DNA of 32,025 nucleotides, from contig JAFDAP010000001.1 in the NCBI GenBank assembly GCA_019313765.1, positions 1 to 32,025 of the forward strand. The letters are read 5' to 3'. The notes under the pieces are model-generated. The model saw only the letters and a program-made list of their open reading frames with translations, was not told where the DNA came from and made no database searches. The position numbers and the translations under genes were made by a program. Positions 8,994-31,273 of the stretch are shown one piece after another. The number at the start of each line of letters is the position of its first letter. Position 1 is the first letter of the stretch. The stretch comes from Deltaproteobacteria bacterium (GTDB lineage Bacteria; Desulfobacterota; DSM-4660; Desulfatiglandales; Desulfatiglandaceae).

Positions 8994-10649
8994 TTATTTC
9001 TGTTCATCCAGCGGGATGCCTATCCGGCGCATCAGATCCTGGAAGCGCGGGTAGGAGCGCAAGGGGTCCCAGAAAGGTCTGCCGAGGTAGGGCAGGTTGG
9101 GTTCGTGCTCCTCGTAGGCCTCAGGATCGACCTGGCGGGCTTGGGAGAGACGGGTCGTTTCATCTGCCGTTAGCTTGACTCGAGTCTTATTGGCAATGCT
9201 GCGCGCCATTTCGCCATACATCACCAGCACATCGGTCATGGCCCTTTCGTATGTCTGTGCCCAAAGGTTTCGCTCCTCGGGAAGCACTTCGATCAACTGT
9301 AACCTGATGCGTACTTTTTCGCCAACCTGATATACAGTCCCTTCCACCACGGCATCCACGTTTAACTCCCGGGCAATCTCCTGTAAAGTCTTCTCCGCAT
9401 CCTTATACTGCATGACTGATCTGCGGGAAATTACCCGCTTGAATGCACTGATCTGAGCCAGCTGCCCGATCAACTCATCGGTCACTCCATCAACGAAAAT
9501 CTCCTGCCCAGCATCGCCTGTCAAGTTTTCAAGCGGTAGAACTGCGATCGAATCAATGGCCTCAGCACGGCCTGTGAAAAGACTGAGTGCTATCACAGTC
9601 ATTATGATGAAAAATCCTGCACTGCCTGCATAAAGAATGGCCTTTTTTTTCCTGTGCTGCCTTGCTTTCCTCATCCTCGTTTTGATCTCTTCCGGGACTA
9701 TTCCTGCGGATATCGACTTCAAGTCATCTAACAGTTCCTCTACCTGCTGGTATCGCTTATCCGGATCCTTCTCAAGAGCCTTTTTCACAACCTGACCTAT
9801 AGACATAGGAATCTCTGAACGTATATCCGTGACCGGCTTGGGCGTTTCTTTCAGAATTGAATACACAACGGCCTGTTCACGCTCCCCCTTGAAGGGCAAT
9901 TGACCACTGAACATCTCATAGAGGACCACACCTAATGACCAGATGTCCGTACGATGATCAACCTCTTCCCCTCGGGCTTGCTCAGGAGACATATAGGCGA
10001 TCGTCCCCATGGCCGTCCCTTTTTGCGTTAACAGAGTTCCTTCAGTCCTCCGGGCCAGTCCAAAATCCATGATCTTCGACTGGCCTTTATTCGTCACCAT
10101 GATATTGGCGCTCTTGATGTCCCTGTGTATGACTCCTTTCTTGTGGGCTTCCTGCAATCCTTCTGCGATTTGTTCAGCGATCCTGAGGGTTTCCTCAAGC
10201 TCCATTGGTCCCGATTCTATCTTTTTCTTTAGGTTATGGCCTTCAATATAGGCCATGGAGATGAAGTTTTTTTCCTCATCCTCATCGAATTCATAAACAG
10301 TACAAATATTGGGATGATCCAGAGCGGCAGCAGCCTGTGCCTCGCGCATGAACCTCTCTTTGACCTCAGGAATATGGGTTAGATCTGGCGGAAGAAACTT
10401 CAAGGCTACAGTGCGCTTCAACTTTGTATCCTCAGCTTTATAGACTACACCCATGCCTCCCCTACCCAGTTCTTCGATGAGCTGGTATCGACCTGCAAAA
10501 GTTATCCCTTTGATCAAATCCTTAACCGGTGTTTGGAGAGTCTTGGTATGGGAAATAGAGATCTCCTCTGAGAAAGGAAGAGGTGTAGCACAGTTGCTGC
10601 AAAAACGTGCAGCATCAGCATTATCTGACTGACACATTGGGCATTTCAT
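8994..10649 (-). CDS. Membrane Ser/Thr protein kinase: N-terminal zinc ribbon, Hanks kinase domain, one TM helix, extracytoplasmic TolB-N-like module
   Basis: The zinc ribbon is 'CPMCQSDN..CSNC'. Kinase motifs are 'GGMGVVYKA', 'VALKFL', 'HRDIKSANIMV', 'DFGLA' and 'YMSPEQ'. The TM helix is 'AILYAGSAGFFIIMTVIALSLF', followed by 'IAVLPLENLTGDAGQEIFVDGVTDELI'. I place the start at M24 of the track ORF (ATG 10649) because AAGAGGAAA precedes it and the zinc ribbon starts right there. Confidence 0.9.
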   Translation of the reverse strand: MKCPMCQSDNADAARFCSNCATPLPFSEEISISHTKTLQTPVKDLIKGITFAGRYQLIEELGRGGMGVVYKAEDTKLKRTVALKFLPPDLTHIPEVKERFMREAQAAAALDHPNICTVYEFDEDEEKNFISMAYIEGHNLKKKIESGPMELEETLRIAEQIAEGLQEAHKKGVIHRDIKSANIMVTNKGQSKIMDFGLARRTEGTLLTQKGTAMGTIAYMSPEQARGEEVDHRTDIWSLGVVLYEMFSGQLPFKGEREQAVVYSILKETPKPVTDIRSEIPMSIGQVVKKALEKDPDKRYQQVEELLDDLKSISAGIVPEEIKTRMRKARQHRKKKAILYAGSAGFFIIMTVIALSLFTGRAEAIDSIAVLPLENLTGDAGQEIFVDGVTDELIGQLAQISAFKRVISRRSVMQYKDAEKTLQEIARELNVDAVVEGTVYQVGEKVRIRLQLIEVLPEERNLWAQTYERAMTDVLVMYGEMARSIANKTRVKLTADETTRLSQARQVDPEAYEEHEPNLPYLGRPFWDPLRSYPRFQDLMRRIGIPLDEQK

Positions 10650-10783
10650 CGCCAATTTCCTCTTGGGAGTAGAATATAGAATACTTTGTGAGGAAGTCAA
10701 ATCATTTGAACACCCCAAAAAAGTATTCTCCTTAAAAGATTATTTATCCCTTAAAAATGTATTTATAAATATTTTTTTCTATT

Positions 10784-10816: not shown

Positions 10817-11446
10817 ATGAAATGGGAAGAGCTTCTTCAAATTGTTGGTAAAGAACCTGTTTTTCACTCAAGCATACTGATTGCAGGTGGAGTAAATCCA
10901 ATAGATCTAGGAAGACAACTGCCACGCTGGGTGAAATCAGGAAAACTTATCCAGCTACGTCGTAGATTATATGTTCTGTCCAAACAATACCAGAAAACAA
11001 GTCCGCATCCGTTTCTTATTGCGAATCAAATTAAACGAGCTTCATATGTGAGCCTACAATCTGCTTTAGAATATCATGGCCTCATTCCAGAATATGTTCC
11101 TATTGTCACCAGCATAAGCACAGGGCGTCCAGAAAAAGTTGATACTCCTTTAGGTTCTTTCATTTTTAAGCACATTAAAAAAGAGCTTTTTTCAAACTAT
11201 CAGCTTGTTGACCTCGGTGAGGAGCAATCGGCTTTTATCGCAACGCCGGAAAAAGCTCTTCTTGACCTACTTTATCTGACACCAGGTTCGGACAAACCTG
11301 AATATTTACAGGAACTCCGGTTGCAGAATTTTACAACTAAAAACATAAATATTCTGATCGAGCTTGCTGGTAAAAGTGGCATCAGAAAACTACTGTATGC
11401 TTCTCGAAGGATTAAGACTATGTTATCTGAAAGTGAAATATCATGA
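10817..11446 (+). CDS. abiEi: Type IV toxin-antitoxin system antitoxin, AbiEi family (wHTH transcriptional autoregulator)
   Basis: The 209-aa ORF has the AbiEi_4-like N-terminus 'MKWEELLQIVGKEPVFHSSILIAGG..LPRWVKSGKLIQLRRRLYVL'. It overlaps the downstream AbiEii gene by 4 bp (ATGA). Confidence 0.85.
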   Translation: MKWEELLQIVGKEPVFHSSILIAGGVNPIDLGRQLPRWVKSGKLIQLRRRLYVLSKQYQKTSPHPFLIANQIKRASYVSLQSALEYHGLIPEYVPIVTSISTGRPEKVDTPLGSFIFKHIKKELFSNYQLVDLGEEQSAFIATPEKALLDLLYLTPGSDKPEYLQELRLQNFTTKNINILIELAGKSGIRKLLYASRRIKTMLSESEIS

Positions 11447-12258
11447 AAGAACAAATCAAGCAGATCATCAATGAAACAGCCAACAAATTGCAAGCAAGGA
11501 GCAGAGTACGGGAATACTGTCAGGCGAGAATTCTTCAATTTCTCCAAGAAAATGGCTTATTCCGCTCCTGGATCTTTCACGGAGGAACAGCACTAAGATT
11601 TTTGTACAGACTCCCTCGATATTCCGAAGATCTGGATTTTGCACTCAAAAGCTCAAAAACTGCGAGAAATTTCTCAGAAATCATTTCAAAGGTAACAAAA
11701 GCTTTTGAAGCCGAAGCTTACAGCATAGATACAAAGCTCAATGATCAGAAAGTTGTAAAATCTGCTTTTATTCGATTCCCTGGATTACTGCATGAAATCG
11801 GTCTTTCTCCGCATAAATCAGAGGCACTCTCAATTAAGATTGAAGTTGACAGCAATCCTCCTCCAGGAGGGATAACTGAAACTTCTGTTATTCGCCGCTA
11901 TGTGATCCTTAACGTGCAGCATTATGATAAAGCATCTCTCCTAAGCGGCAAACTACATGCCTTACTCGCCCGTCCTTACATTAAAGGACGTGATCTGTAT
12001 GACCTATTCTGGTACTTATCTGATCCCCTGTGGCCGACACCAAATATTAAATTTCTGAATGAAGCTCTCCTTCAGACAACTTGGAAAGGCCCTGAAATCA
12101 CAGAATCAAACTGGAATTTACTTACAGCAAAAAGGCTGAAATCTATCAATTGGGAAACCGCTGTCAAAGATACCCATCCTTTTATTGAAAAAGCCTCCGA
12201 TCTGAAGCTTTTAACAAAGGAAAACGTCATGGATATTCTAAAAAGAAGGAGAGGGTAA
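11443..12258 (+). CDS. abiEii: Type IV TA toxin, AbiEii/AbiGii nucleotidyltransferase family (DUF1814)
   Basis: The 271-aa ORF carries the NTase motif 'HGGTALRFLYRLPRYSEDLDFAL' and the downstream 'KGRDLYDLFW'. It is translationally coupled to abiEi. Confidence 0.9.
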   Translation: MKEQIKQIINETANKLQARSRVREYCQARILQFLQENGLFRSWIFHGGTALRFLYRLPRYSEDLDFALKSSKTARNFSEIISKVTKAFEAEAYSIDTKLNDQKVVKSAFIRFPGLLHEIGLSPHKSEALSIKIEVDSNPPPGGITETSVIRRYVILNVQHYDKASLLSGKLHALLARPYIKGRDLYDLFWYLSDPLWPTPNIKFLNEALLQTTWKGPEITESNWNLLTAKRLKSINWETAVKDTHPFIEKASDLKLLTKENVMDILKRRRG

Positions 12259-12319
12259 ATGAGAACATCCCTTCCAGGCCAGCACCCGATTCTTGTAAAT
12301 TCTATATCAACAATTGGGG

Positions 12320-13021
12320 CTAAATAAATTTCTCTCTGTTCTGAAGACGGAGAAGAGCAAAGAGAGTGGCCACCACGGAACCCATGATCAGGTAGAGACG
12401 GTTGTAGAATGTAGTCTGGGCCCAGAGCACCGACCTAAGGGCATCCACACTGCGGAAGGGGTTGTGAAAGAGAAACCAGCTGCTGTTCTGAATCTCTTCG
12501 GCCAGCACCCAAAAGAACAAGAGAAAGATAACCATAATTACCGCAGTGACATTGCCGCTGGTGGACTGGGCAGAAATATAAAAGGCCAGGCTCCCCAAAA
12601 AGATCACCGGTATCATCACATGGAAAACCATCCGCCATATGGGGAAATCGGCCAGGGTGAGACGGCAGAGGAGAACCAGGGCGAACATCATAACGGCGAT
12701 GATGATGTAGAGCGTTACCAACCGTGTCAACCAAACTTTGTAGCGGTAATCGGGGATGCCAAAAAGTGTTTCCACCATGCGCGTGTCCTGGTCCCTCTGT
12801 ATGCCGTATACCGAAGGATAGAAGACAAGCAGAATTCCCGGTGCCAGGAGATAATTATAAAGATTTTCCGAATTGGGCGTCCCCCCTCGTCCCAGCAGGC
12901 CTATGACCAGGATCAGGAAAAAGAGGCCCATGGCCAGTCCCAGAAAAACAACGAACCGTCCGCCGAAAACATGGAGGGCATTATATCTCAAAAAGGCGAC
13001 TGCGGTTTTAATCCTGTTCAT
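12320..13021 (-). CDS. Small polytopic membrane protein, probable ABC-2-type permease partner of the fused NBD
   Basis: The protein is 233 aa from 'MNRIKTAVAFLRY' and has six hydrophobic helices by eye. ATG 13021-13019 overlaps the TGA (13020-13018) of the upstream gene as ATGA. The track start at 13063 lies inside the upstream CDS. The permease family assignment is inferred from size, topology and context only. Confidence 0.6.
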   Translation of the reverse strand: MNRIKTAVAFLRYNALHVFGGRFVVFLGLAMGLFFLILVIGLLGRGGTPNSENLYNYLLAPGILLVFYPSVYGIQRDQDTRMVETLFGIPDYRYKVWLTRLVTLYIIIAVMMFALVLLCRLTLADFPIWRMVFHVMIPVIFLGSLAFYISAQSTSGNVTAVIMVIFLLFFWVLAEEIQNSSWFLFHNPFRSVDALRSVLWAQTTFYNRLYLIMGSVVATLFALLRLQNREKFI

Positions 13022-16000
13022 GGCGTGTCTCCTTCGTTCCTTTCGGTCGAACCCATCAACCACATGTAGGAATCCTCCAGGGTGGGAACCACTTGTTTAG
13101 CCTCTTCAAAAGGCTGCTTCCCGGCTAGGATCCGCACTCTGACCTTGCCTGCATCCCTCATATGATGGACCACTTTGGTAGCACGTCGGATCCTATCTAG
13201 ATCACCTTCCGGAATAAGGGCCTGCCAGACATTGCCTCGAGTCCGTTCGACCAATTCCTTGGGAGTGCCGACGAACTTGACTCTTCCCTCCAGCAGAACA
13301 GCCACTTTGTTGCATGAGCTGGAGATGTCCTCAATGATGTGGGTGGAGAAGATCACGATGCGGTCCTTGGCCAATTCAGACAGAAGATTCCTGAATTTGA
13401 TTCTCTCCCTTGGATCCAGTCCCGCCGTCGGTTCATCCACCACCAGGATCCTGGGAAGCTTGAGCAGGGTCTGGGCGATGCCGACCCGCTGCTTCATCCC
13501 TCCTGAAAATGTCCCAATTTTGTTGTCCCGGTTATCCGTAAGATGAACGGATTCCAGCGCGGTGCTGACGATGCGTTCCCTTTCTACCTTGTTCCATATC
13601 CCTTTGAGCATGGCCTGGTAGTCCAGAAACTGGACGACGGTCATGTTTTCATAGGTGCCGAATTCTTGGGGCAGATAGCCGATCAAGGCCTGAAGTTCCT
13701 CCCTGTGCTCCTCCAGGTCCAAGTGATTGAAGGACACTTTACCCCGGCTGGGGCCCAGGATGCCGCAGATGATGCGCATCAGGGTTGTCTTTCCCGCGCC
13801 GTTGGGTCCCACCAGTCCGAACATCCCGCTTCCAATGGAGAGGGAGATTTGGTCCAGTGCTCGGAATGGCTTTTTCTTTCGACTGAGCAAGGGAACACTT
13901 TGAACGAATCTGTAGAAGGCGCGCCGCAGCCGACCAAACCGCCCGGTCAGGCGGTCAATATTAACGCCCTTTTCCTCCAAACGTTTGGCTACGGCCTTGA
14001 GAAGAATGGCCAGATACCAGATCATGCCAAAAAAAACAGTGGAAAATGTATCCTGCCACAAACCATTCAACCAGAGGAGCACAGGAATGGGCAGTCCCCA
14101 GCGAACCACCTTCTCTCCTAGGTCAAATATCCGTTCCCGCAGGCGCCGGGCCGGTCCCGGTGCGGGTTTGAAGGTGCGGAACAAATTCAGGGTAGCCAAA
14201 TAGAAGACGATGACCAGAATCAGCCGCCACAATCCTCCTTTGATGTAAAAGAACAGGAAAAAGACCAGAAAGGCATAGAGGGGAAGGAGATAAACCCAGC
14301 GGGCCAGACGCTCCTTAAAAGGAAGGCTTCCTGATGATACCTCCCGGTCCCTGCCCCCTTTCTTCCACTCTTTTGCGAATTTAATAAAATCGTCATAGAC
14401 CTTGGATACATTGCGGATGGTGATGGTGATGGGTGCATCATCGGCAAAAAGCTGGGTGCGGCTGCGTCGGAGGCTGGTTCTGACAAACCATGTGCCGGCG
14501 GGAATAGCGGCCAAAAGCCCCAGTATGTAGGCGGACTGCCAGAGCACTGAATGGATGGTGTTGATGATCAGGACCAGACCCAAGAAAAACAGCCCCAGCA
14601 TCAGGAGCTTGGTTTTGAGCGGCAGCCTGTTCAGCCAGCGCAGGGTGTTGTCCAGGCCAAAGGCAGCTGTGGGGATGATGACCAGGGTGAAGAGGGTGGC
14701 GAAGGCCAGCCCCCCGATGACTGTGATGGCAAAGGGGGCGCCGATCTGGGAGATGTATTCTGCCCGGCCCATGGCAATGGGCAGCATGGCCAGGATGGTG
14801 GTTACCGCTGTGATCAGGATGGGCCTGACCCGGGTCTGGCCAGCCGTGATCAGGGCACGTGACAAGCGAAAATTTTTCCGTTGGAGGATGCGCGAGTAGT
14901 CGATCAGTATGATGCCGTTGTTGACGACGACACCCAGAAGGATCAGGAATCCGATAAGCGCATTGGCATTGTAGATGGAGTTCCCTGTAAGGATGAGAGC
15001 CAGGAAGGCACCCACCGCGGCCAGGGGCAGGGTGAACATCATCACCAGAGGAGTGATCAGGGATTCGAAGGTGGAGGCAAGGACCATGAAGATGAGCAGG
15101 ATCCCTATTCCAATAAGAAAGTAAAATTCCGAAATGTCGCTTTCATCATGGGCCACTTCAATGGCCACGCCGGGAGGCGGGTAGATACCGGCGACAATGT
15201 CCTCGATCTCCGTCCGGGCCTGATCCAGAAGGGTGCTGGATTCCTCGATATCTGACTCGAACTGGTAGGTCACTGTTACCTGTTTTTCCTGGTTTATCCG
15301 ACTGATCCGGCTGTAGCCTGCCGAATACAGGAGTTTGGAAATCTGGGTGATGGGGACCAACCCCTCCGAGGCGGATGGGATCTGGAGCCTGCGAAGGTCA
15401 TCCGAAGTTTTCTCTTCTTCCTCTTCAGTCTTCAAGATGATGTCCACCTCTTCCGGGCCATCCATGTACTTGACGGTGGCGGATATCTCCTTCTGGAAAG
15501 TGTTAAGCTCATCCATAACTGACTGAAGCCCTACATCAAAATGTTTGAGTGCTGCCTTGTCAAGAAGGAGATCGATGCTGGGCTGCTGGTTGGAAACGCT
15601 GATATTGACCGATCTTACGGTATCGAGATTTTCAATATTGTATTGGATATCCTCGGCTATAGCCCTCAAGATCTCCAGGTCTTGACCACTGAGGATAACC
15701 TTTTCCTGGCTGGCTCCCATACCGAGAAGCCGCTGAAAATCCTGGCCTCTGCCGCTGCCGCCCTGAAAGCCAACATTCTGGGTGGGTTCTTCGTAGGAAA
15801 AGTCGATTCGAGGGAAGGCATCATCCAGCATTCCCTCGATGGAGTCCTTGATCTCCTCGAGAGGACGTCCGGCGATCTTCTCATATCCCTTCTCCAGCTG
15901 AAACGTCAGAACGATGTTGTCCTCCTGGATGGATGATGTCCGTTCCTCTATCTCCTGCATGTCCTTCAACCGCTTATCCATCTCCCGGGCCTGTTCATCC

Positions 16001-17712
16001 GCTGTCTCCAGGGTTGTTCCGGAAGGGAGAGTGGCATACAAATTAAATGTATCAAGTGGAACCTCCCGGGGAACGTTGACACTAAGCCCCAGACAAATAA
16101 CGAGGCTGATAAAAAAGGCCATCACACACACAGCCAGCGTTCCTGCCGGAAAACGCAGGCCTGTTTTGAGAAGCACGGTGTATATCTGCATGGGCCGCTG
16201 CTTTTGGCTGAACGCAGTGCGAGGTGTGTTCTGTTTTTTCCCGGAAAGGATCCGGTAAGCGATGGTGGGAATCAGAAGAAATGCCACTGCCAGCGAAACA
16301 AGAAGAGTAGCGATGATGGAAACACCGATCTGCCAGCCCAGTGTTTTGATCAGGGGCTCAGTAGAAAACAGAAAGGGGACAAAAATGCAGATAGTGGTCA
16401 GTGTGGCAGCGATGATGGCTCGCAGCACTTCATTGGTCCCATCCACTACGGCATTGCCTGCAGTCTGATTCCTGTTGATGTGGCGGTTGATGTTTTCCAG
16501 CACCACAACGCTGCTGTCCAGCAGCATCCCCACCGCAATGGCGATTCCCACAAGAGTAAGTGTGTTGATGGTGATCCCAAGCGCGTAAAAAAGATTCATG
16601 GATATCAAGACAGAGATTGGGATGGTGAGAGCAATGATAAAAACAAATTTAAGCCTTCGTATAAAAACCCAGAGGACGGCGATGGCCAGAAGGCTTCCCA
16701 AAAGGCCCAATATAAAGATGGACTGCATGTTGTCTTCGATGACCCGGGCTTCATCCACCTGAATGACGAGCTCGATTCCGTCGGCACTGATCCGGCGGTT
16801 GATGTCCTCGATGGCCTTACGGGTTTTGGCGGCCAGGGAAAGGAGGTTTGTGTCCCAACTGCGCACCAGTGACACCGTGATGGTCTCCATGCCGTTGATC
16901 CGCGAGATGGATTCCTCCTCCGCCCCACCTTCCCTGATCTCAGCGATCTGGCCCAGTGTTATAGGACCTGTGTTTTTGACCACAACATCAACCAGGTCGG
17001 GAATATTCGTGTACTCGCTGACCAGGTTGATGAAATATTTCTGGCGTCCCTCCCGGGCGACCCCAAGGTACTGCCTTTGTCCAGCCTGCTGGTTGATTTT
17101 GGAGGCAACCTGGTTGATCGTCAATCCGAATTCGGCCAACAGGCTGCTGTCCAGAACGATCTCGATGGACCGCTTGCGGCCGCCGTACACATTAACGTTG
17201 GCCACCCCATCAATGGTTTCCAACTGGGGAGTAACCTTCTCATCAATAACACTGCGGATCTGATCCAGGCCGCCTTCACCTCTGGCTTGAAAGGAAAGGA
17301 ACTGATTGGAGAGCTGCTCGGGATTGGTCCTGGCCACCTTCACCTGGAAGGAGTCGGTCAGCTGGGCCGCAGCGGCCGCAACCCTGTCCTGGAGTTTCAG
17401 AAAATCATATTTTTGGCGGCTGGACTGGTTATAGTAAACAAAGATGGTGGCCTGCCTGCGGCTTACATATGATTCGATCTTTTCGATGTTTTCCAGCCCG
17501 GCGATAGCTCCCTCCAGCGGGATCACGGCATAGTGCTCCACATAGGCAGGATCGGCGTTCTGCGGGCCGGAGATATTGATGATCAATTGAGGAAGCTCAG
17601 TATTCGGGAAGAGCTCGATGGGAAGCTGCCGGAAGGAGACAGCCCCCAGCAGACAGAGCCCGGCAATGAGCATGAAGACTGTAACCGGCCGTCGTATGAT
17701 CTGTCGAATCAT
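13018..17712 (-). CDS. RND (AcrB/HAE-type) efflux permease fused in frame to extra TM helices and a complete ABC-transporter ATPase domain (1,564 aa)
   Basis: Residues 1-~1020 form an RND core, with 'MIRQIIRRPVTVFMLIAGLCLLGAVSF', TM4 'GMLLDSSVVVLENI', and 'LGVVVNNGIILIDY..RVRPILITAVTTILAMLPIA'. The C-terminal NBD has Walker A GPNGAGKT (13786-13809), 'YLPQE', signature FSGGMKQRVG (13480-13509), Walker B ILVVDEPT (13426-13449) and 'STHI'. The frame is uninterrupted, and the start lies 3 nt after the upstream RND stop. Confidence 0.9.
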   Translation of the reverse strand: MIRQIIRRPVTVFMLIAGLCLLGAVSFRQLPIELFPNTELPQLIINISGPQNADPAYVEHYAVIPLEGAIAGLENIEKIESYVSRRQATIFVYYNQSSRQKYDFLKLQDRVAAAAAQLTDSFQVKVARTNPEQLSNQFLSFQARGEGGLDQIRSVIDEKVTPQLETIDGVANVNVYGGRKRSIEIVLDSSLLAEFGLTINQVASKINQQAGQRQYLGVAREGRQKYFINLVSEYTNIPDLVDVVVKNTGPITLGQIAEIREGGAEEESISRINGMETITVSLVRSWDTNLLSLAAKTRKAIEDINRRISADGIELVIQVDEARVIEDNMQSIFILGLLGSLLAIAVLWVFIRRLKFVFIIALTIPISVLISMNLFYALGITINTLTLVGIAIAVGMLLDSSVVVLENINRHINRNQTAGNAVVDGTNEVLRAIIAATLTTICIFVPFLFSTEPLIKTLGWQIGVSIIATLLVSLAVAFLLIPTIAYRILSGKKQNTPRTAFSQKQRPMQIYTVLLKTGLRFPAGTLAVCVMAFFISLVICLGLSVNVPREVPLDTFNLYATLPSGTTLETADEQAREMDKRLKDMQEIEERTSSIQEDNIVLTFQLEKGYEKIAGRPLEEIKDSIEGMLDDAFPRIDFSYEEPTQNVGFQGGSGRGQDFQRLLGMGASQEKVILSGQDLEILRAIAEDIQYNIENLDTVRSVNISVSNQQPSIDLLLDKAALKHFDVGLQSVMDELNTFQKEISATVKYMDGPEEVDIILKTEEEEEKTSDDLRRLQIPSASEGLVPITQISKLLYSAGYSRISRINQEKQVTVTYQFESDIEESSTLLDQARTEIEDIVAGIYPPPGVAIEVAHDESDISEFYFLIGIGILLIFMVLASTFESLITPLVMMFTLPLAAVGAFLALILTGNSIYNANALIGFLILLGVVVNNGIILIDYSRILQRKNFRLSRALITAGQTRVRPILITAVTTILAMLPIAMGRAEYISQIGAPFAITVIGGLAFATLFTLVIIPTAAFGLDNTLRWLNRLPLKTKLLMLGLFFLGLVLIINTIHSVLWQSAYILGLLAAIPAGTWFVRTSLRRSRTQLFADDAPITITIRNVSKVYDDFIKFAKEWKKGGRDREVSSGSLPFKERLARWVYLLPLYAFLVFFLFFYIKGGLWRLILVIVFYLATLNLFRTFKPAPGPARRLRERIFDLGEKVVRWGLPIPVLLWLNGLWQDTFSTVFFGMIWYLAILLKAVAKRLEEKGVNIDRLTGRFGRLRRAFYRFVQSVPLLSRKKKPFRALDQISLSIGSGMFGLVGPNGAGKTTLMRIICGILGPSRGKVSFNHLDLEEHREELQALIGYLPQEFGTYENMTVVQFLDYQAMLKGIWNKVERERIVSTALESVHLTDNRDNKIGTFSGGMKQRVGIAQTLLKLPRILVVDEPTAGLDPRERIKFRNLLSELAKDRIVIFSTHIIEDISSSCNKVAVLLEGRVKFVGTPKELVERTRGNVWQALIPEGDLDRIRRATKVVHHMRDAGKVRVRILAGKQPFEEAKQVVPTLEDSYMWLMGSTERNEGDTP
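13021..13866 (-). other. Domain: ABC ATPase (NBD) with C-terminal extension, paralogous to the ATPase at 30362-31273
   Basis: All NBD motifs are intact (see the parent CDS). The tail '..GNVWQALIPEGDLDRI..VRVRILA..PTLEDSYMWLMG' parallels 'GKVWTISTGYEDLDSW..YELRIVA..PNLEDAYIHYMQ' in the stand-alone ATPase. Confidence 0.85.
13867..14394 (-). other. Domain: ~175-aa hydrophobic insertion (about four TM helices) between an NBD-like first strand and the Walker A region
   Basis: 'ITITIRNVSKVY' (14395-14430) resembles the first strand of an NBD (compare 'MQISISQLSKRY' of the stand-alone ATPase). It is followed by 'WVYLLPLYAFLVFFLFFYI', 'LWRLILVIVFYLATLNLF', 'WGLPIPVLLWLNGLW' and 'FSTVFFGMIWYLAILLKAV', and then by 'KPFRALDQISLSIGSGMFGLVGPNGAGKTT'. 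Confidence 0.55.
14653..17712 (-). other. Domain: RND transporter core (aa 1-~1020 of the fusion)
   Basis: The boundaries come from my residue count of the ORF translation. The last canonical RND helix ends in 'FTLVIIPTAAFGL'. Confidence 0.75.
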
Positions 17713-17715: not shown

Positions 17716-20700
17716 CTAAGCCCTCTCTTCTCTCTGCTTCATACGGCCGCCCAAAATACGATAGACCGCGGGGATAACGATCAGAGTCAGGATGGTGGAT
17801 GTCACCAATCCTCCTATAACAGCCACAGCCAGCGGAGCCCTGAGGGAAGCTCCTTCACCTATTCCCAGGGTCAACGGGAAGAGGGCCAGAATGGTTGTGG
17901 CAGAAGTCATAAAAATGGGCCTGATGCGCAGCTGTCCTGCCGCAATGATGGCCGCTTCCATGGCCCTGCCGCTCCGGCGAAGCTGGTTGATCAGATCCAC
18001 CAGGATGATTGAATCGTTTACCGCGATCCCAGCCAGCATGATCATTCCAATAAAGGACATGATATTCAATGGCAGGTTGAGCACCATCAGGAGGATCACC
18101 GCCCCTACCATGGCTAGAGGAATGGTCAGAAGAATGACGAATGGATGGCGCAGAGACTCGAACTGCGAGGCCATAACCATATAGACCAGGATGACAGCCA
18201 GGAGGAGGGCGAACCACAGGTGGCGGAAGGATTCCCTCCTCAGTTTTTCCTCACCGGTGATGGCAAAAGAATAATCTTGGGGCAGTGTGATCTCCGCGAG
18301 TGCGCTTTCCACATGGGCTATTATTTTGTCGAAGGCCTCTTCTCCGCTGAGCAAGGCCGTCACTTCAGCTGTCCGGATCTGGTTATTTCTCAGAATCTCG
18401 CGGGGAGAGGTTGTTTTTCGAAGTGAGGCCACCTCATCCAACCTCAATTTGCGTCCCCCTGTGGCATCCAGAAGAAGACCCTCCAGTTCCTTGAGCGTCG
18501 GTTCGGGCGTGCGCAGCATGATGTTGATGTATTCGCCCTCGTCTTCATATTCCCCCAGTTCCTTACCAGACAATAGATCTTTCAGCTGGGAGCCAATGCT
18601 CTGGGGAGTGAGGCCGAAGCTTGTGGCTGCGGTCCTGTCGAAAACCACTTCCACTTCGGGCCTACCTTCCTGAAAGCTGGTTTCGACAGCAGTCAAACCC
18701 GGCTGCTTCTGCAGAATGGCCTCCACCTCATCGGACAGAGATTTCAGGGTGTCCAGTTCCTTGCCCCGTATTTCCACGATCAAAGGTGCCTCCACCGTTC
18801 CCAGGGTGATCTGAAGGGCGGTCTGAGCCCGCATGATCTGGGCGGTGAGACCGGGAATGTCAGTCAACTGATTTTTCAACCACACCTGTAGAGAGTCCAG
18901 GTCCAGCCCATCCGGTTTGACTGTCACAAGGAGCATGGCGCTGTTCTCTCCGGCCAACACCTCTGATTCTGTAAGGGCGGTTCCCACAGGTCCAATGCGG
19001 GAGTAGATGGACTGGATGGATTCCCCATGATTTTCCTGGAGCAGTGTTTCCAGGCTGCGAACTGTGGATTCCGTCCGCTCCAGGTTCGATCCCTCCGGCA
19101 GAAGAAGCGAAATCTCCAGTTCATTGCGGTCCGTCTGGGGCATAAACTCACTGCCCATGTTGACCGCCAAAAAGCCTGCCGACAGGATCAAAAGAAAGGC
19201 CAGGGCAACCACAAGCCAGCGTTTTTTCAGTATGCCGCTAAGGAAACGGGCATAGAAGGGAAACTGCAGGGAGGGTTTGGCTACTTTGACCTTAGGAGCT
19301 TTCAGGATCCTGGAACAGAGCATTGGGATGACGGATAGGGCGACAAAAAGGGAAGACAGGAGGGCGAAGGCCACTGTCCAGGCTTGCTCCTTGAACAGCT
19401 CCCCTGCGATGCCCTGGAGATAGACGATGGGGAGAAACACGATGATAGTTGTCAGGGTGGAACTGGTGATGGCTCCCCCCACTTCACCAGCGCCGCGCAC
19501 AGACGCCTCCTTAATCCCCAATCCCTCCTCCAGATGGCGGAATATGTTTTCCACAACGACGATGGCATTGTCCACCAGCATACCGGCTCCCAGAGCCAGA
19601 CCTCCCAGAGTCATGATGTTAAGGGTCAGCTTATTAAAGTACATCAAGTTAAATGTGGCGATGATGGAGACGGGAATGGCAATGCTGACAACAGCGGTAA
19701 CACCTATCCTGCGAAGGAAAATGAACAGGATCAGGACAGCCAGAAAAATCCCGATCATTCCGGTCTGCTCTACTTCCCTTACCGCGGATTTAATGAAACC
19801 CGCCTGGTCTTGGATGATGTGCAGTTCGTATCCGGGAAGGGCCCTCTGAAGGCTTTCCAGCTGGCTGCGGATGTATTCCGAAGCCTGCGTGGTGTTGAAC
19901 CGGGCTTCCTTGAAGATCTCGAGAGCAAGACACCGACGACCGTTATAGTGGACGATGTTCTCAGGATCGCTGAGAACGTAGCTCACATCGGAGATATCTT
20001 TCAGGGTGATAGGAGTGCGGTCGGATGATTCTCCCGTTTCATCGGTTTTATAGGCGATGATCAGGTTTTTGAGGTCTTCCAGCGACTCCAACTCACCCAC
20101 ACCCCGGATGGTATAGCGCAGGCCCATCTCGACGATGGACCCGCCGGAGATGCTCCTGTTGCTTTCCTGCACTGCGGAGGCCACCTGGTCCAATGTCAGC
20201 CCGTAGGCTTCCAGAGTAAAGGAATCCGTCCGGATCTCGATCTCTCTTTTTCTCTCTCCGACAATTTCCACGGCGGCCACGCCGGGAAGCCTGACAAGGT
20301 CGTTGCGAATGTTGTTTTCCGCAGTCTGACGCAGTCTGTCCAGATCCTCCAGGTCCTCGTGCCAGAAGACGGCGGTGATAACGGGCTGGGAATTGGGGTC
20401 CAGCTGGCTGACAGTGATATCATCCAGTTCCTGGCCCTGGCTAAAATCGGACACGGACTTTTGCAGTTCCAGATAGGCCTCGTCCATATCCGTATTCCAG
20501 TCATATTCGACCGTGATCAGGGCCCGGCCCACACGGGAAATGGAGGAGACCCCGGTCACCTTGCGGCCGCGGGCGGCCATAGCTTCCAGCTGAGAGACAA
20601 ACTGTTCCTCCATCTCTTCTGGAGGACGATTTTCAGCTGCCATGGAGACATAAAGCCGCGGATTATTCAGACGCGGTAGAAGATCGATCCCCAGCCTTTG

Positions 20701-20790
20701 AAAGGCGATATAGCCAAGGAGGCAGATGGCCAGGATGACCATGATTATGGTCGTGGGATACCTGACGGAAAATTGTGCCAGCTTTTTCAT
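17716..20790 (-). CDS. RND efflux transporter permease subunit (AcrB/HAE family)
   Basis: The 1,024-aa ORF shows 'MKKLAQFSVRYPTTIIMVILAICLLGYIAF', TM4 'GAGMLVDNAIVVVENIF', and 'GIAVNDSIILVDLINQL..RIRPIFMTSATTILALFPL'. It starts 1 nt after the MFP stop. Confidence 0.93.
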   Translation of the reverse strand: MKKLAQFSVRYPTTIIMVILAICLLGYIAFQRLGIDLLPRLNNPRLYVSMAAENRPPEEMEEQFVSQLEAMAARGRKVTGVSSISRVGRALITVEYDWNTDMDEAYLELQKSVSDFSQGQELDDITVSQLDPNSQPVITAVFWHEDLEDLDRLRQTAENNIRNDLVRLPGVAAVEIVGERKREIEIRTDSFTLEAYGLTLDQVASAVQESNRSISGGSIVEMGLRYTIRGVGELESLEDLKNLIIAYKTDETGESSDRTPITLKDISDVSYVLSDPENIVHYNGRRCLALEIFKEARFNTTQASEYIRSQLESLQRALPGYELHIIQDQAGFIKSAVREVEQTGMIGIFLAVLILFIFLRRIGVTAVVSIAIPVSIIATFNLMYFNKLTLNIMTLGGLALGAGMLVDNAIVVVENIFRHLEEGLGIKEASVRGAGEVGGAITSSTLTTIIVFLPIVYLQGIAGELFKEQAWTVAFALLSSLFVALSVIPMLCSRILKAPKVKVAKPSLQFPFYARFLSGILKKRWLVVALAFLLILSAGFLAVNMGSEFMPQTDRNELEISLLLPEGSNLERTESTVRSLETLLQENHGESIQSIYSRIGPVGTALTESEVLAGENSAMLLVTVKPDGLDLDSLQVWLKNQLTDIPGLTAQIMRAQTALQITLGTVEAPLIVEIRGKELDTLKSLSDEVEAILQKQPGLTAVETSFQEGRPEVEVVFDRTAATSFGLTPQSIGSQLKDLLSGKELGEYEDEGEYINIMLRTPEPTLKELEGLLLDATGGRKLRLDEVASLRKTTSPREILRNNQIRTAEVTALLSGEEAFDKIIAHVESALAEITLPQDYSFAITGEEKLRRESFRHLWFALLLAVILVYMVMASQFESLRHPFVILLTIPLAMVGAVILLMVLNLPLNIMSFIGMIMLAGIAVNDSIILVDLINQLRRSGRAMEAAIIAAGQLRIRPIFMTSATTILALFPLTLGIGEGASLRAPLAVAVIGGLVTSTILTLIVIPAVYRILGGRMKQREERA

Positions 20791-20791
20791 T

Positions 20792-21871
20792 TTACTCGAT
20801 GACCTTGACGCGAGATCGATTTCTCAGAGTCTCGAAGCCTTCAATGATCAGTCTGTCCCCGAGATTGAGCCCACTGGCCACTTCAACGCTGTCGCTGGTC
20901 TCGATGCCCAGCTCCAACCTCCGCTCCAAAGCGATCCCTCGCTGGATGATGTAAACGGTTTTCCGGCCCCGTCTGTCCAGGATGATATCTTTGGGGATGA
21001 TGATCACATCCGCCTTCTCCTGGACGATGATGTCGGCGCGTACGAACATTCCGGGTTTGAGCATAAGGTCCTTGTTGCCCGCTTCGATCTTGATCTTGAA
21101 CATCCGGCTGGTGGGATCAAGCGCCGGTGAGATCTGTGTCACCATTCCTTCGAGTTTCTGTTTGTCCTGGCTGTAGTTGCTGACGGCGACATTCTGGTTT
21201 CTCTTGATGCGGCCCATCTCTTTTCCGGGCAGGGTCAGTTCGGCATAGAGACGGGAATAATCCATCAGAGTAGCCACTTCGGTGTTGACCTCCACCCACT
21301 GACTGGAAGTGAAGTGTGGGAGGTCGACGATAAATCCCTTGAAGGGGGCGCGGATCTCCAGCTTGGCCAGGGAAATTTTGGCGTTGTCATAATTGTAACG
21401 GGAATCGATCAGAGCCCTTTCCGCATCCTTGACCTCACTTAAAGTGATGCCTCCCTTTTCATAGACGCTTTGCTGCTTAGTGAATTCCCTCTCCGCCGAC
21501 TCGAGGCTAAGCTTTTTGGAATCGATGGCGATCTGATTGACATATTCAGGATTCTCCAGGGAAAAGAGCAGGGTGTTGGCAGCCACGGAATCTCCCATGG
21601 CAAAAGATTTTCCCGTCCTGGGATTTCGCCTCAATGTGTACTTCCCTGCCTGTTCCGTTTTTAGCATGGTTTCCTTAACAGCATAGACCGTTCCCGTGGC
21701 CGTCACGAATTCCTGGATAGAGGATTTTTTCACCTCTTCCGCCCGGACAGGAATAGTAGAGTCCGTCTCTGTTGTCATACGCTCCTGCCGGCAGCCGGTC
21801 AAAACCAATATGAATATAAATAACAATACATACAGTGGTGTAACATTGAGTCCCGTTGTGGTTTTTCTCAT
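20792..21871 (-). CDS. Efflux RND periplasmic adaptor (membrane fusion protein, HlyD/AcrA family), lipoprotein
   Basis: The 359-aa ORF has a signal peptide with the lipobox 'LVLTGC'. A coiled-coil hairpin segment is followed by 'LEIRAPFKGFIV' and beta-barrel segments. The SD AGGAGGG is present, and the start lies 3 nt after the OMP stop. Confidence 0.9.
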   Translation of the reverse strand: MRKTTTGLNVTPLYVLLFIFILVLTGCRQERMTTETDSTIPVRAEEVKKSSIQEFVTATGTVYAVKETMLKTEQAGKYTLRRNPRTGKSFAMGDSVAANTLLFSLENPEYVNQIAIDSKKLSLESAEREFTKQQSVYEKGGITLSEVKDAERALIDSRYNYDNAKISLAKLEIRAPFKGFIVDLPHFTSSQWVEVNTEVATLMDYSRLYAELTLPGKEMGRIKRNQNVAVSNYSQDKQKLEGMVTQISPALDPTSRMFKIKIEAGNKDLMLKPGMFVRADIIVQEKADVIIIPKDIILDRRGRKTVYIIQRGIALERRLELGIETSDSVEVASGLNLGDRLIIEGFETLRNRSRVKVIE

Positions 21872-21874
21872 CCT

Positions 21875-23413: not shown

Positions 23414-23468
23414 GAACAACTCCATTTTCCAGCAGAACACTCAGTCCTGCATGGATCTATTTTTAAGC

Positions 23469-30361: not shown

Positions 30362-31273
30362 TCATTCTTTTTTTTCAAATATCCCGGAAAGATGGCCCGA
30401 GGACGCAGTCTGCATATAATGGATATAGGCGTCTTCCAGATTGGGTTCCACGGGGATGGCCTCCATCGTGCCCGGATTCTCCGCCACGATCCGCAGCTCG
30501 TATCCACCTTCCGAGGGGACCGTGGAGATAACAGGGAACCGCGCCTTCCAGCTGTCCAGGTCTTCATAGCCGGTGGATATGGTCCAGACTTTTCCCCGGG
30601 CGCTGTCCACAAGGTCGGCTGGAGGACCGTGAAAGATGATGCGTCCCATGTCCATAAGCGCGATGGTCTCGCAGGTGGAGGAGATGTCACCCACAATGTG
30701 GGTGGAGAGAAGGATGATCCGGTCCTGGGATGACAGATCGGACAAAAGATTGCGGAACCGGATCCGCTCCTCCGGATCCAGACCGACCGTGGGTTCGTCC
30801 ACAACCAGGAGCGGAGGGTCTCCGATCAGGGTTTGGGCAATGCCCAGTCTCCTCTTCATGCCGCCGGAGAGCTTCCCCGTCATACGGTCCCTGGCTTCGA
30901 AGAGACCCACTGTTTCCAGCAGCAGGTCGATCCTGTCCCGGCGCTTGTTTTTGGACAGGATACCGTTGAGACAGGCACTGTAATCCATAAACTCCCAAAC
31001 CGTCAGTTTGGCGAACACGGAAAAATCCTGGGGAAGATAGCCGATCTGCCGCCGGATCTCCTTGCGGTTTTTGCGGATGTCCAGATCATTGACTTTGACG
31101 CGTCCGGAGCTGGGTTTTAGAAGTGTGACCAGGATGCGCATCAACGTAGTTTTTCCGGCGCCGTTGGGGCCTAGCAGACCGAACAATCCTTTTGGGATGT
31201 CCATATCGATATCCTTAAGGGCCAGCTTGCCGCCGGGATAACGTTTTGAAAGTTGTGATATTGAAATTTGCAT
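30362..31273 (-). CDS. ABC transporter ATP-binding protein (ABC-2/DrrA-like subfamily), first gene of the operon
   Basis: The 303-aa ORF has Walker A 'GPNGAGKTT', 'YLPQDF', signature 'LSGGMKRRLG', Walker B 'LLVVDEPT' and 'STHI'. AGGAAAA lies 7 nt upstream of the ATG, and a ~400-bp AT-rich intergenic region lies upstream. Confidence 0.95.
   Translation of the reverse strand: MQISISQLSKRYPGGKLALKDIDMDIPKGLFGLLGPNGAGKTTLMRILVTLLKPSSGRVKVNDLDIRKNRKEIRRQIGYLPQDFSVFAKLTVWEFMDYSACLNGILSKNKRRDRIDLLLETVGLFEARDRMTGKLSGGMKRRLGIAQTLIGDPPLLVVDEPTVGLDPEERIRFRNLLSDLSSQDRIILLSTHIVGDISSTCETIALMDMGRIIFHGPPADLVDSARGKVWTISTGYEDLDSWKARFPVISTVPSEGGYELRIVAENPGTMEAIPVEPNLEDAYIHYMQTASSGHLSGIFEKKE

What the first reader, a model, noticed from the sequence alone, without database searches (positions are those of the whole stretch)
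13867..14394. The fused NBD looks split: an NBD-type first strand is separated from Walker A by a ~175-aa four-helix membrane insertion
'ITITIRNVSKVY' (14395-14430) aligns by eye with the opening strand of the operon's stand-alone ATPase ('MQISISQLSKRY'). In that ATPase, '..GGKLALKDIDMDIPKGLFGLLGPNGAGKTT' follows immediately. In the fusion, the equivalent 'KPFRALDQISLSIGSGMFGLVGPNGAGKTT' comes only after ~175 residues containing four strongly hydrophobic segments.

A membrane hairpin pair inserted inside an NBD loop would tether the ATPase to the bilayer or to the RND helices in an unusual way. It could be the physical coupling element between the two motors.
Basis: partly seen in the sequence, partly recalled or inferred. 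Interest (0 to 1): 0.7.

Follow-up and report, generated by a model that had tools for sequence, protein, structure and literature searches.

The report
ABC ATPase domain split by membrane helices
In a 1564-residue protein that fuses a proton-type (RND) efflux pump to an ABC ATPase, the first strand of the ATPase domain, which carries the adenine-stacking tyrosine, lies about 176 residues and four membrane helices ahead of the rest of the domain; I found no published description of such a layout, and it is conserved in a family of uncultured bacteria.

Summary
'ITITIRNVSKVY' is aa 1095-1106 (window 14395-14430, minus strand) of the 1564-aa ORF 13018-17712. Walker A follows 196 residues after the tyrosine, against 22 in the operon's stand-alone ATPase. 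The 176 residues between (13867-14394) hold four hydrophobic helices.

Four results support a truly split nucleotide-binding domain (NBD).
1. Splicing the strand onto aa 1280-1564 makes full-length NBD models align from position 1-2 and adds 4-10 bits. Eleven control segments and the native local sequence add 0-3.
2. The motif 'I.I.NL.K[IV]Y...rF.rEW' is the conservation peak between the RND domain and the NBD. It holds in about 26 relatives at 25-45% identity, and the insertion is always 188-209 aa.
3. AlphaFold2 on two distant members makes exactly this segment a beta-strand (pLDDT 92 and 96). The residues just before beta2 become helix and coil.
4. The even helix count and the positively charged loops keep both halves cytoplasmic.

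The CFTR NBD1 'regulatory insertion' sits in the same beta1-beta2 loop, so the site tolerates insertions. A membrane insertion there was not found in the literature searched. The idea that it couples the two motors is untested. A translationally coupled ABC-2 permease downstream offers a more conventional partner for this NBD.

The parts
14668..17712 (-). RND (AcrB-like) transporter domain of the fusion protein, aa 1-1015
   Evidence: Pfam ACR_tran, E=6e-154, aa 1-1015. It aligns to CmeB, MdtB and AcrB chains over its whole length.
14458..14619 (-). Two extra membrane helices (TM13 aa 1032-1052, TM14 aa 1056-1085) that bring the chain back to the cytoplasm after RND TM12
   Evidence: Hydropathy. 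AlphaFold2 helices H8-28 and H32-61. They are followed by the positively charged stretch 'RTSLRRSR'.
14395..14430 (-). Displaced NBD beta1 strand with the A-loop tyrosine (ITITIRNVSKVY, aa 1095-1106; Tyr1106)
   Evidence: Splice test: +4 to +10 bits and alignment from model position 1-2, with controls at or below +2.3. The K and the aromatic residue are invariant or nearly so in the family. AlphaFold2 strand E73-82, pLDDT 92; the replicate gave pLDDT 96.
14365..14394 (-). Conserved post-strand motif 'DDFxKFxKEW' (aa 1107-1116), the start of the insertion; probably an interfacial helix leading to TM15
   Evidence: Family consensus 'rF.rEW' with Trp1116 at 5.5 bits. AlphaFold2 helix aa 1111-1129 at lower confidence.
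13867..14394 (-). The whole insertion in the beta1-beta2 loop (aa 1107-1282, 176 aa)
   Evidence: The tyrosine-to-Walker A distance is 196 aa here and 188-209 aa in 15 of the 17 full-length sequences scanned, against 22 aa in the stand-alone ATPase. The other two members carry the same motif, as seen by eye. No Pfam family matches it.
14245..14319 (-). Inserted membrane helix 1 (TM15, aa 1132-1156)
   Evidence: Hydropathy 2.2. AlphaFold2 H108-132. Conserved Trp1141.
14173..14235 (-). Inserted membrane helix 2 (TM16, aa 1160-1180)
   Evidence: Hydropathy 1.9. AlphaFold2 H136-156. Conserved Trp1162.
14056..14145 (-). Inserted helix 3 (aa 1190-1219): an amphipathic cytoplasmic part followed by a short hydrophobic core at 1205-1219 (TM17), kinked
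   Evidence: AlphaFold2 H166-182 and H184-195. This is the least conserved and least hydrophobic of the four.
13969..14049 (-). Inserted membrane helix 4 (TM18, aa 1222-1248)
   Evidence: Hydropathy 1.8-2.1. AlphaFold2 H198-224.
13897..13935 (-). Conserved cytoplasmic return helix 'GRLRRAFYRFVQS' (aa 1260-1272) that leads back to beta2
   Evidence: AlphaFold2 H236-248 followed by coil, and the same in the replicate. Family consensus 'GR...LRR..Y'. It is not modelled as a strand.
13021..13866 (-). Remainder of the NBD from beta2 to the C-terminus (aa 1283-1564), with Walker A, Q-loop, signature, Walker B, D-loop, H-loop and a C-terminal domain
   Evidence: PF00005, E=9e-29, aa 1286-1430. 49% identity to the stand-alone ATPase to the end of the protein. 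Motifs read directly from the sequence. Foldseek top hits are 4yer, 1vpl, LptB and NosF.
12320..13021 (-). Downstream 233-aa six-helix ABC-2-type permease, translationally coupled to the fusion; the likely membrane partner of the fused NBD
   Evidence: The ATG at 13019-13021 overlaps the TGA at 13018-13020, and 'GAAGGAGA' lies upstream. Six hydrophobic segments. Conserved in synteny. The ortholog in L005 hits PF12679 at E=5.8e-8.
30362..31273 (-). Stand-alone paralogous ABC ATPase with a contiguous beta1 (MQISISQLSKRY); used as the reference for the unsplit state
   Evidence: NCBIfam models align from position 1-4. PF00005, E=1e-32.
17716..20790 (-). Partner RND paralog (1024 aa) without an ABC part
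   Evidence: ACR_tran, E=3e-223. An equivalent gene sits directly upstream of the fusion in the distant loci L005 and L006.

Best explanation
The C-terminal ABC nucleotide-binding domain (NBD) of this RND-ABC fusion protein is a complete, catalytically competent domain whose chain is interrupted. Its first beta-strand (aa 1095-1106, ending in the A-loop Tyr1106 that should stack on the adenine of ATP) is encoded 176 residues ahead of beta2.

The beta1-beta2 hairpin loop has been expanded into a membrane excursion. It runs from a conserved interfacial motif (DDF.KF.KEW) through four helices that cross the membrane out-in-out-in, then through a conserved basic return helix, to beta2 and Walker A. 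Two further helices (TM13-14) link the strand to RND TM12.

The strand folds back onto beta2 in the cytoplasm to complete the antiparallel beta-subdomain. That much is shown by sequence, profile and predicted secondary structure. The strand's pairing partner is inferred.

Inferred consequence: the NBD is stitched to the membrane at three points next to the RND helices. Its ATP-binding A-loop is then mechanically continuous with membrane helices on both sides. The most likely role is to hold and orient this NBD at the membrane beside the RND protomer and the co-translated ABC-2 permease. It could also pass nucleotide-dependent movements of the beta-subdomain into the helix bundle, or the reverse.
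For: (a) Canonical full-length NBD profiles align to the native fusion only from model position 7-19, but to the stand-alone paralog from position 1-4.

(b) After in-silico removal of the insertion they align from position 1-2 and gain 4-10 bits. The reversed strand, ten other 17-mers from aa 1030-1266 and the native local segment gain 0-3.3 bits.

(c) A HMMER scan of 1.84 billion representatives found 87 relatives of aa 1030-1300, including 16 full-length fusions of 1550-1590 aa at 25-40% identity. All carry 'h.I.I.NL.K[IV]Y' ahead of Walker A, read by eye; the measured distance is 188-209 aa in the 13 of those 16 (plus this window's protein and a MAG copy) that the scan matched. The strand block scores 2.4 bits per column, equal to beta2 and well above the flanks. 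The Lys is invariant and the Ile, Tyr and Trp are nearly so.

(d) AlphaFold2 on aa 1025-1564 gives a 10-residue strand at aa 1097-1106 with block pLDDT 92. It is the only strand before aa 1283, and aa 1260-1282 are helix plus coil. A replicate on the most divergent member (P0073) gives the same picture with pLDDT 96.

(e) Four helices is an even number and K/R-rich loops sit on the same side, so both NBD pieces are cytoplasmic.

(f) All catalytic motifs are intact.

(g) Precedent: the CFTR NBD1 regulatory insertion lies between strands 1 and 2, and CFTR cut in that loop still works (PMC2217481).

(h) The architecture recurs on many independent contigs from Bacteroidota, Latescibacterota and Acidobacteriota MAGs.
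Against: Model coordinates could not be read. That the strand pairs with beta2/beta4 of the same NBD is therefore inferred from DSSP 'E', high pLDDT and the absence of any other strand nearby.

AlphaFold2 and the HMMs both recognise the same sequence pattern, so they are not fully independent. The family alignment has only 26-29 sequences.

A few NBD profiles extend weakly into the local segment 'VPLLSRKKKPF', adding up to +3 bits.

The third inserted helix has a short hydrophobic core, so four crossings is a prediction. Nothing tested here bears on coupling or function. There is no experimental data for any member.
Confidence: 0.78

Rival explanations
1. The NBD really begins at about aa 1283 or uses its local upstream residues ('FVQSVPLLSRKKKPF') as a degenerate first strand. 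On this view aa 1030-1282 is an ordinary six-helix membrane domain or linker, and 'ITITIRNVSKVY' is a conserved cytoplasmic-loop element with another job, such as contacting the RND cytoplasmic face or the permease.
For: Pfam PF00005 starts at aa 1286. Some NCBIfam models extend to aa 1274-1278 and gain up to about 3 bits from the local segment. 'iP.iGkk.pF' before beta2 is itself conserved. Six helices plus an NBD is the usual count for an ABC half-transporter.
Against: PF00005 never includes beta1, even in the stand-alone ATPase, where it starts at aa 19. The remote strand scores 2-3 times better than the local one and beats 11 controls. AlphaFold2 models the local segment as helix plus coil and the remote one as a high-confidence strand in two distant members. 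The local segment lacks a conserved aromatic residue at A-loop spacing, while the remote strand keeps Y/F in every member.
Confidence: 0.1
2. The strand is a genuine NBD beta1 but is used in trans. The long membrane excursion lets it insert into the NBD of a neighbouring fusion protomer in the RND oligomer, a domain swap, rather than into its own NBD.
For: RND transporters are oligomers and ABC NBDs act as dimers (established knowledge). The 176-aa excursion is long enough for a swap. CFTR halves cut in this loop reassemble from separate chains.
Against: Monomer AlphaFold2 models place the strand confidently without a second chain, though a monomer run cannot show a swap.
Confidence: 0.08
3. 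It is an artefact or a removable element: a misassembly, a frameshift joining separate genes, a chance motif, or an intein-like insertion spliced out of the mature protein.
For: The first word-indexed protein search returned only four fragments truncated at contig ends.
Against: The same uninterrupted 1550-1590-aa reading frame occurs on dozens of independent contigs from several phyla. The insertion is hydrophobic and conserved. Its boundaries (Y|DDF ... KPF|RAL) show no intein junction residues. Controls exclude chance.
Confidence: 0.02

Closest known systems
CFTR (ABCC7) NBD1 'regulatory insertion' (residues 404-435)
   Same: [quoted passage not shown] The domain still folds and works, even when the chain is cut there (PMC2217481).
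   Different: The CFTR insertion is about 32 residues, soluble, mobile and phosphorylated. Here the insertion is 176 residues (about 170-185 across the family), forms four membrane helices and is flanked by conserved interfacial motifs.
ABC-2 / DrrA / GldA / NosF / ABCA-type ABC ATPases (type V exporters), including the operon's own 303-aa ATPase
   Same: The best profile matches are GldA (E=2e-50) and DrrA. The best solved relatives are ABCA4/1/3, TM0544, TM_1403 and NosF. Identity to the stand-alone paralog is 49%, including the C-terminal domain. All catalytic motifs are present.
   Different: In all of those the NBD is one contiguous stretch, with the A-loop aromatic residue about 20-25 residues before Walker A. 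Here it is 196 residues before, and the domain is also fused behind an RND transporter.
MacB / FtsX-type (type VII) ABC transporters working with an adaptor and TolC
   Same: An ABC ATPase is covalently joined to four membrane helices in an operon with a membrane-fusion protein and an outer-membrane factor.
   Different: MacB has a complete N-terminal NBD followed by four helices, with a large periplasmic domain between TM1 and TM2. Here the helices sit inside the NBD, have only minimal periplasmic loops, give no FtsX or MacB_PCD Pfam hit, and the periplasmic machinery comes from an RND domain.
Heteromeric RND pumps such as MdtBC (two RND paralogs in one operon)
   Same: Two adjacent RND paralog genes sit downstream of an MFP gene and, here, an OMF gene. 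MdtB is among the best solved matches.
   Different: One paralog carries six extra helices and an ABC NBD. Neither paralog keeps the AcrB D408/K940 pair.

Membership tests
ABC transporter nucleotide-binding domain (PF00005 and full-length NCBIfam NBD models) | Walker A, Q-loop, ABC signature, Walker B with catalytic Glu, D-loop and H-loop | tested here: met
   GPNGAGKTT (aa 1302-1310), LPQE, FSGGMKQR, ILVVDEP, AGLD and STHIIED are read from the translation. PF00005 E=9e-29.
ABC transporter nucleotide-binding domain (PF00005 and full-length NCBIfam NBD models) | A beta1 strand with an A-loop aromatic residue that is part of the same fold | tested here: met
   The remote strand is recognised by profiles after splicing. 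It is conserved and predicted as a high-confidence strand. The pairing partner is inferred, not read from coordinates.
ABC transporter nucleotide-binding domain (PF00005 and full-length NCBIfam NBD models) | The domain is a single contiguous stretch, with the A-loop about 20-25 residues before Walker A | tested here: not met
   Tyr1106 is 196 residues before Walker A, and the distance is 188-209 in the 15 of the 17 full-length sequences scanned for which the scan measured it. It is 22 in the stand-alone ATPase. This is the novelty. It is a member of the fold, not of the usual linear architecture.
GldA / DrrA equivalog families (TIGR03522, TIGR01188) | Score above the curated cut-off | tested here: not met
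   GldA scores 172-181 bits against a cut-off of 402.6, and DrrA 168-172 against 312.45. It is related to these subfamilies but is not a member.
RND / AcrB family (PF00873) | Full-length match to the 12-helix, two-periplasmic-loop architecture | tested here: met
   ACR_tran aa 1-1015 against model positions 1-1015 of 1021, E=6e-154.
RND / AcrB family (HAE1-type proton relay) | TM4 Asp-Asp (AcrB D407/D408) and TM10 Lys (K940) | tested here: not met
   TM4 reads 'LLDSS' (family 'DN') and TM10 reads 'VVNNG' in the alignment to CmeB. The partner RND has 'DN' and 'VND'.
CFTR-type regulatory insertion | Insertion located between beta1 and beta2 of the NBD | tested here: met
   Placement by profile alignment and AlphaFold2. 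The CFTR location is taken from PMC2217481.
CFTR-type regulatory insertion | Short, soluble, disordered, phosphoregulated segment | tested here: not met
   176 aa with four hydrophobic helices.
MacB/FtsX type VII ABC transporter | A complete NBD followed by four TM helices, with a large periplasmic domain between TM1 and TM2 | tested here: not met
   The helices lie inside the NBD and the periplasmic loops are 3-7 residues. There are no FtsX or MacB_PCD hits.
ABC-2 (type V) permease, for the downstream 233-aa gene | Six TM helices and a match to ABC2_membrane Pfam families | tested here: inconclusive
   Six hydrophobic segments. The window protein itself has no Pfam hit. Its syntenic ortholog in L005 (23% identical, shared motifs) hits PF12679 at E=5.8e-8 and PF12698 at 1e-5. 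No PDB relative was found by sequence.

The most novel reading that the evidence does not exclude
The family is a hybrid pump in which ATP hydrolysis acts directly on an RND protomer. The fused RND paralog has lost every charged residue in TM10 (VNN) while its partner keeps an Asp (VND). It has gained an NBD whose ATP-sensing beta1/A-loop is spliced into a six-helix bundle packed against the RND membrane domain. Nucleotide binding at Tyr1106 would then move TM14/TM15 and so drive or gate the RND conformational cycle. That would be an ATP-powered or ATP-gated RND transporter, and the membrane insertion inside the NBD would be the transmission element.
Probability: 0.15. Interest if true: 0.92.

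Novelty: new variant of a known kind. Interest (0 to 1): 0.74.

Why it matters
ABC NBDs are among the most studied protein domains, and in the cases I know of they are contiguous modules that touch membrane domains only through non-covalent coupling helices. Here the chain leaves the NBD after its first strand, crosses the membrane four times and returns. This puts the adenine-binding A-loop in direct covalent continuity with membrane helices, which is a different possible way to link nucleotide state to membrane-domain movement.

It also occurs in a protein that covalently joins the two main energy classes of bacterial efflux machinery, the proton-motive RND pumps and the ATP-driven ABC transporters. 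The operon is conserved across several phyla of uncultured bacteria. If the two motors are functionally coupled, that would change how tripartite pumps can be energised or regulated. It would also give a tractable system for asking how RND and ABC cycles can be synchronised. Even if the insertion is only an anchor, it shows that the beta1-beta2 loop of an NBD can accept a whole membrane domain, which is useful for engineering and for annotation pipelines that now miss beta1.

Tried and rejected
- **Word-indexed homolog search** with aa 1030-1296 returned only four fragments truncated at contig ends, none reaching the strand. The index-free HMMER scan and a genome scan were needed.
- **Pfam and NCBIfam** on the insertion alone found nothing (DUF4131, E=0.46, ignored).
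- **Foldseek** on the model only recovers the contiguous NBD and cannot speak to a strand 176 residues away.
- **Model coordinates** are not exposed in the sandbox, so strand pairing could not be read directly.
- **A PDB profile search** for the downstream permease found nothing, and the window copy has no Pfam hit.
- **Three literature searches** for RND-ABC fusions found nothing relevant.

Considered and rejected:
- An intein or mobile insertion: no junction residues, and the segment is hydrophobic and conserved.
- A frameshift or misassembly: the same frame occurs on dozens of contigs.
- A local degenerate beta1: it scores lower and is modelled as helix plus coil.
- A MacB-like four-helix domain: wrong order and no periplasmic domain.
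- Stand-alone '2TM-beta1-4TM-NBD' genes: the shorter database entries look like fragments or internal start calls.
Full report
**1. What is in the sequence**

The minus-strand ORF 13018..17712 encodes a 1564-aa protein. Pfam places an AcrB-type RND transporter at aa 1-1015 (E=6e-154) and an ABC ATPase domain (PF00005) at aa 1286-1430 (E=9e-29).

'ITITIRNVSKVY' is aa 1095-1106 (14395-14430) and Walker A 'GPNGAGKTT' is aa 1302-1310 (13783-13809). The flagged interval 13867-14394 is aa 1107-1282.

Hydropathy finds hydrophobic stretches at about 1139-1157, 1160-1180, 1205-1219 and 1222-1243. It also finds two more (about 1032-1052 and 1056-1078) between RND TM12 and the strand.

BLASTP against the operon's 303-aa ATPase (30362-31273, minus strand) gives 49% identity from aa 1285 to 1553, matching residues 18-287 of the ATPase. 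The first 17 residues of the ATPase (MQISISQLSKRYPGGKL) have no local counterpart.

**2. Is the strand really NBD beta1, or is it chance?**

PF00005 never covers beta1; it starts at residue 19 even in the stand-alone ATPase. I therefore used full-length NBD models from NCBIfam.

- They align to the stand-alone ATPase from model position 1-4.
- They align to the native fusion only from position 7-19, which is aa 1274-1283.

I then deleted the insertion in silico by joining aa 1090-1106 to aa 1280-1564. Nearly all models now align from position 1-2, starting at Ile1096-Thr1097 (construct residues 7-8), and gain 4-10 bits:

| Model | Truncated NBD | Strand spliced on |
|---|---|---|
| GldA | 173.6 | 180.6 |
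| galliderm | 139.3 | 146.6 |
| PhnC | 115.4 | 125.6 |
| GlcV | 115.5 | 125.3 |
| LptB | 117.7 | 124.2 |

The controls gave far less. The reversed strand added nothing. Ten other 17-mers from aa 1030-1266 added at most 1.4 bits (GldA), 2.3 (galliderm) and 0.7 (PQQ). The native local segment, aa 1262-1279, added 0-3.3 bits. The remote strand is therefore a much better beta1 than anything else in the linker, including the residues that immediately precede beta2.

**3. Conservation**

- The word-indexed search found only four fragments at contig ends.
- A pattern scan of GTDB genomes found the same 1564-aa fusion in four MAGs, one labelled Acidobacteriota, at 74-87% identity with the strand invariant.
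- An index-free HMMER scan of 1.84 billion cluster representatives with aa 1030-1300 found 87 relatives (E<1e-3). Sixteen of these are full-length proteins of 1550-1590 aa at 25-40% identity in this region.

Every one has 'h.I.I.NL.K[IV]Y' followed by '..rF.rEW', then hydrophobic segments, then 'NI.rl.GR...LRR..Y....iP.iGkk.pF.AL..vSL.I..GMFGLLGPNGAGKTT'. The tyrosine-to-Walker A distance is 188-209 aa in the 15 of the 17 full-length sequences the script matched. The other two members carry the motif with one extra residue, as seen by eye.

Per-column information shows the strand block (aa 1095-1116) at 2.4 bits. That equals beta2 (2.3) and exceeds everything else between the RND domain and the NBD (0.9-2.1). 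The motif Lys is invariant, and the Ile, Tyr and the Trp of 'EW' are at least 90% conserved.

Cluster members come from Bacteroidota and Latescibacterota MAGs and from many metagenomes. Where the proteins are named at all, the name is 'multidrug efflux pump subunit AcrB/ABC-type multidrug transport system ATPase subunit'. This rules out misassembly, frameshift and chance.

**4. Structure prediction**

AlphaFold2 on aa 1025-1564 with the 29-sequence family alignment gave mean pLDDT 82. Its elements are:

- helices at aa 1032-1052 and 1056-1085;
- a ten-residue strand at aa 1097-1106, with block pLDDT 92;
- helices at 1111-1129 (low confidence), 1132-1156, 1160-1180, 1190-1206 plus 1208-1219, 1222-1248 and 1260-1272;
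- coil, then beta2 at 1283-1293, followed by a standard NBD and a C-terminal beta domain.

A second run on the most divergent member (P0073) gave the same pattern, with the strand block at pLDDT 96.

In both models the strand is the only beta element before beta2, and the residues just before beta2 are helix plus coil. DSSP only assigns 'E' to hydrogen-bonded strands, and all other strands belong to the NBD. The strand must therefore be docked on the NBD, and the canonical partner is beta2/beta4. I could not read coordinates, so this last step is an inference. Foldseek confirms the rest is an ordinary NBD nearest to TM_1403 (4yer), TM0544 (1vpl), LptB, NosF and ABCA proteins (by sequence).

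**5. Topology**

RND proteins end in the cytoplasm (established for AcrB). Two helices, then the strand, then four helices returns the chain to the cytoplasm each time.

The loops predicted to be inside are rich in Arg and Lys: 'RTSLRRSR', 'KEWKKGGRDRE...KERLAR', 'RTFKPAPGPARRLRERIFDLGEKVVR' and 'KRLEEKGVNIDRLTGRFGRLRRAFYR'. The predicted outside loops are 3-7 residues ('KGG', 'NGLWQDT'). The geometry required for a split NBD is therefore met on paper. The third inserted helix has a short hydrophobic core and is the weakest part of this prediction.

**6. Context**

The operon on the minus strand runs in this order:

1. ABC ATPase (30362-31273).
2. An ABC-2 permease fused to an M1-peptidase-like region and a Golvesin_C domain. 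The ORF is listed as 26926-30804, but the likely start is the ATG at 30349-30351.
3. A second M1-like/Golvesin_C protein (23469-26858).
4. An outer-membrane factor (21875-23440).
5. A membrane-fusion protein (20792-21871).
6. RND paralog 1 (17716-20790).
7. The RND-ABC fusion.
8. A 233-aa six-helix protein (12320-13021).

The start codon of the last gene overlaps the fusion's stop codon (ATGA), with 'GAAGGAGA' upstream. It is conserved downstream of the fusion in every locus examined. Its ortholog in a marine contig matches ABC2_membrane_2 at E=5.8e-8.

The gene order is kept in two distant loci, L005 and L006: ATPase, Golvesin_C protein, (OMF), MFP, RND, fusion, small permease. The system therefore always holds two NBD genes and two ABC-2-type membrane genes alongside two RND paralogs. 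One simple reading, which is inference, is a heteromeric ABC-2 transporter with one NBD covalently tied to one RND paralog.

**7. How it most likely works**

Shown:
- The NBD is complete only if the remote strand is counted.
- All catalytic motifs are intact.
- The insertion is membrane-embedded by prediction and is conserved.

Inferred:
- The strand folds back to complete the beta-subdomain and supplies the adenine-stacking Tyr1106.
- The six extra helices hold the NBD at the membrane next to the RND helices and the co-translated permease.
- Because beta1 is joined to helices at both ends (about 10-15 residues to TM14, and a conserved interfacial motif to TM15), ATP-dependent movements of the beta-subdomain could pass into the bundle, or the reverse.

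Whether that coupling exists is untested, as is whether it targets the RND domain or the ABC-2 permease.

**8. Comparison with known systems**

The only described insertion at this site that I could document is the CFTR NBD1 regulatory insertion (residues 404-435, 'between strands 1 and 2'). CFTR cut in that loop still assembles and gates (PMC2217481). That makes the site a proven permissive one, but the CFTR segment is short, soluble and disordered.

MacB-type transporters also combine an NBD with four helices and work with an MFP and an OMF. There, however, the NBD is intact and the helices carry a large periplasmic domain. No paper in the searchable library describes an RND-ABC fusion or an NBD interrupted by membrane helices. 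That library lacks most subscription journals.

I therefore rate this as a new variant of a known kind, namely the ABC NBD. It sits within a fusion architecture that itself appears undescribed.

**9. Side observation that bears on the boldest reading**

Aligned to CmeB/AcrB, the fused RND has 'LLDSS' in TM4 (family 'DN'). In TM10 it has 'VVNNG', where AcrB has Lys940. All 15 members in which the script found TM10 lack a charged residue there (14 'VNN', one 'VNG'). The partner RND has 'DN' and 'VND', and the Asp in TM10 is kept in the distant loci too.

The protomer that gained the ATPase thus lacks any charged TM10 residue, while its partner keeps one. This is compatible with, but far from proof of, an ATP-driven or ATP-gated RND protomer.

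**10. Verdict**

- The split-NBD interpretation is supported (confidence about 0.8).
- The coupling-element idea is open.

Noticed in passing
window 13018-17712 (-), with 17716-31273 (-) and 12320-13021 (-); loci L005 and L006: The covalent RND-ABC fusion and its operon are conserved across distant MAGs (Bacteroidota, Latescibacterota, Acidobacteriota). The order is ATPase, ABC-2/M1-like/Golvesin_C protein(s), OMF, MFP, RND, RND-ABC fusion, small ABC-2 permease. It appears undescribed in the searchable literature.
   Followed up: partly
window about 16500-16540 (fusion TM4) and about 14910-14950 (fusion TM10); RND1 17716-20790 (-): The proton-relay residues differ between the two RND paralogs. 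The fused one has TM4 'DS/DN' and TM10 'VNN', with no Lys940 equivalent and no carboxylate; none of the 15 family members in which TM10 was found has a charged residue there. The partner RND has TM4 'DN' and TM10 'VND', also in L005 and L006.
   Followed up: partly
window 13018-13021 (-): There is an ATGA overlap. The start codon of the downstream 233-aa ABC-2-like permease (13019-13021) overlaps the fusion's TGA (13018-13020), with 'GAAGGAGA' eight bases upstream. This suggests translational coupling and hence 1:1 production.
   Followed up: yes
window 26926-30804 (-): The listed 1292-aa ORF starts at a TTG that lies 440 nt inside the ATPase gene. The likely real start is the ATG at 30349-30351, 11 nt after the ATPase stop. 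That gives a protein of about 1141 aa with an N-terminal ABC-2 membrane domain, an M1-peptidase-like region and a C-terminal Golvesin_C domain. A second M1-like/Golvesin_C protein follows at 23469-26858.
   Followed up: partly
window 10817-12258 (+): A type IV toxin-antitoxin-like pair lies directly after the operon: a 209-aa ORF with a weak AbiEi_3 hit, then a 271-aa AbiEii nucleotidyltransferase toxin (PF08843, E=1.6e-27). GC content drops to about 0.41-0.44 here against about 0.53 in the operon.
   Followed up: no
window 8994-10718 (-): A 574-aa Ser/Thr protein kinase (Pkinase, E=1.7e-56) with an N-terminal zinc-ribbon.
   Followed up: no
window 12314-13069 (+) versus 12320-13063 (-): Two long ORFs almost exactly overlap on opposite strands. 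Synteny and the ABC-2 homology of orthologs indicate that the minus-strand one is the real gene.
   Followed up: yes
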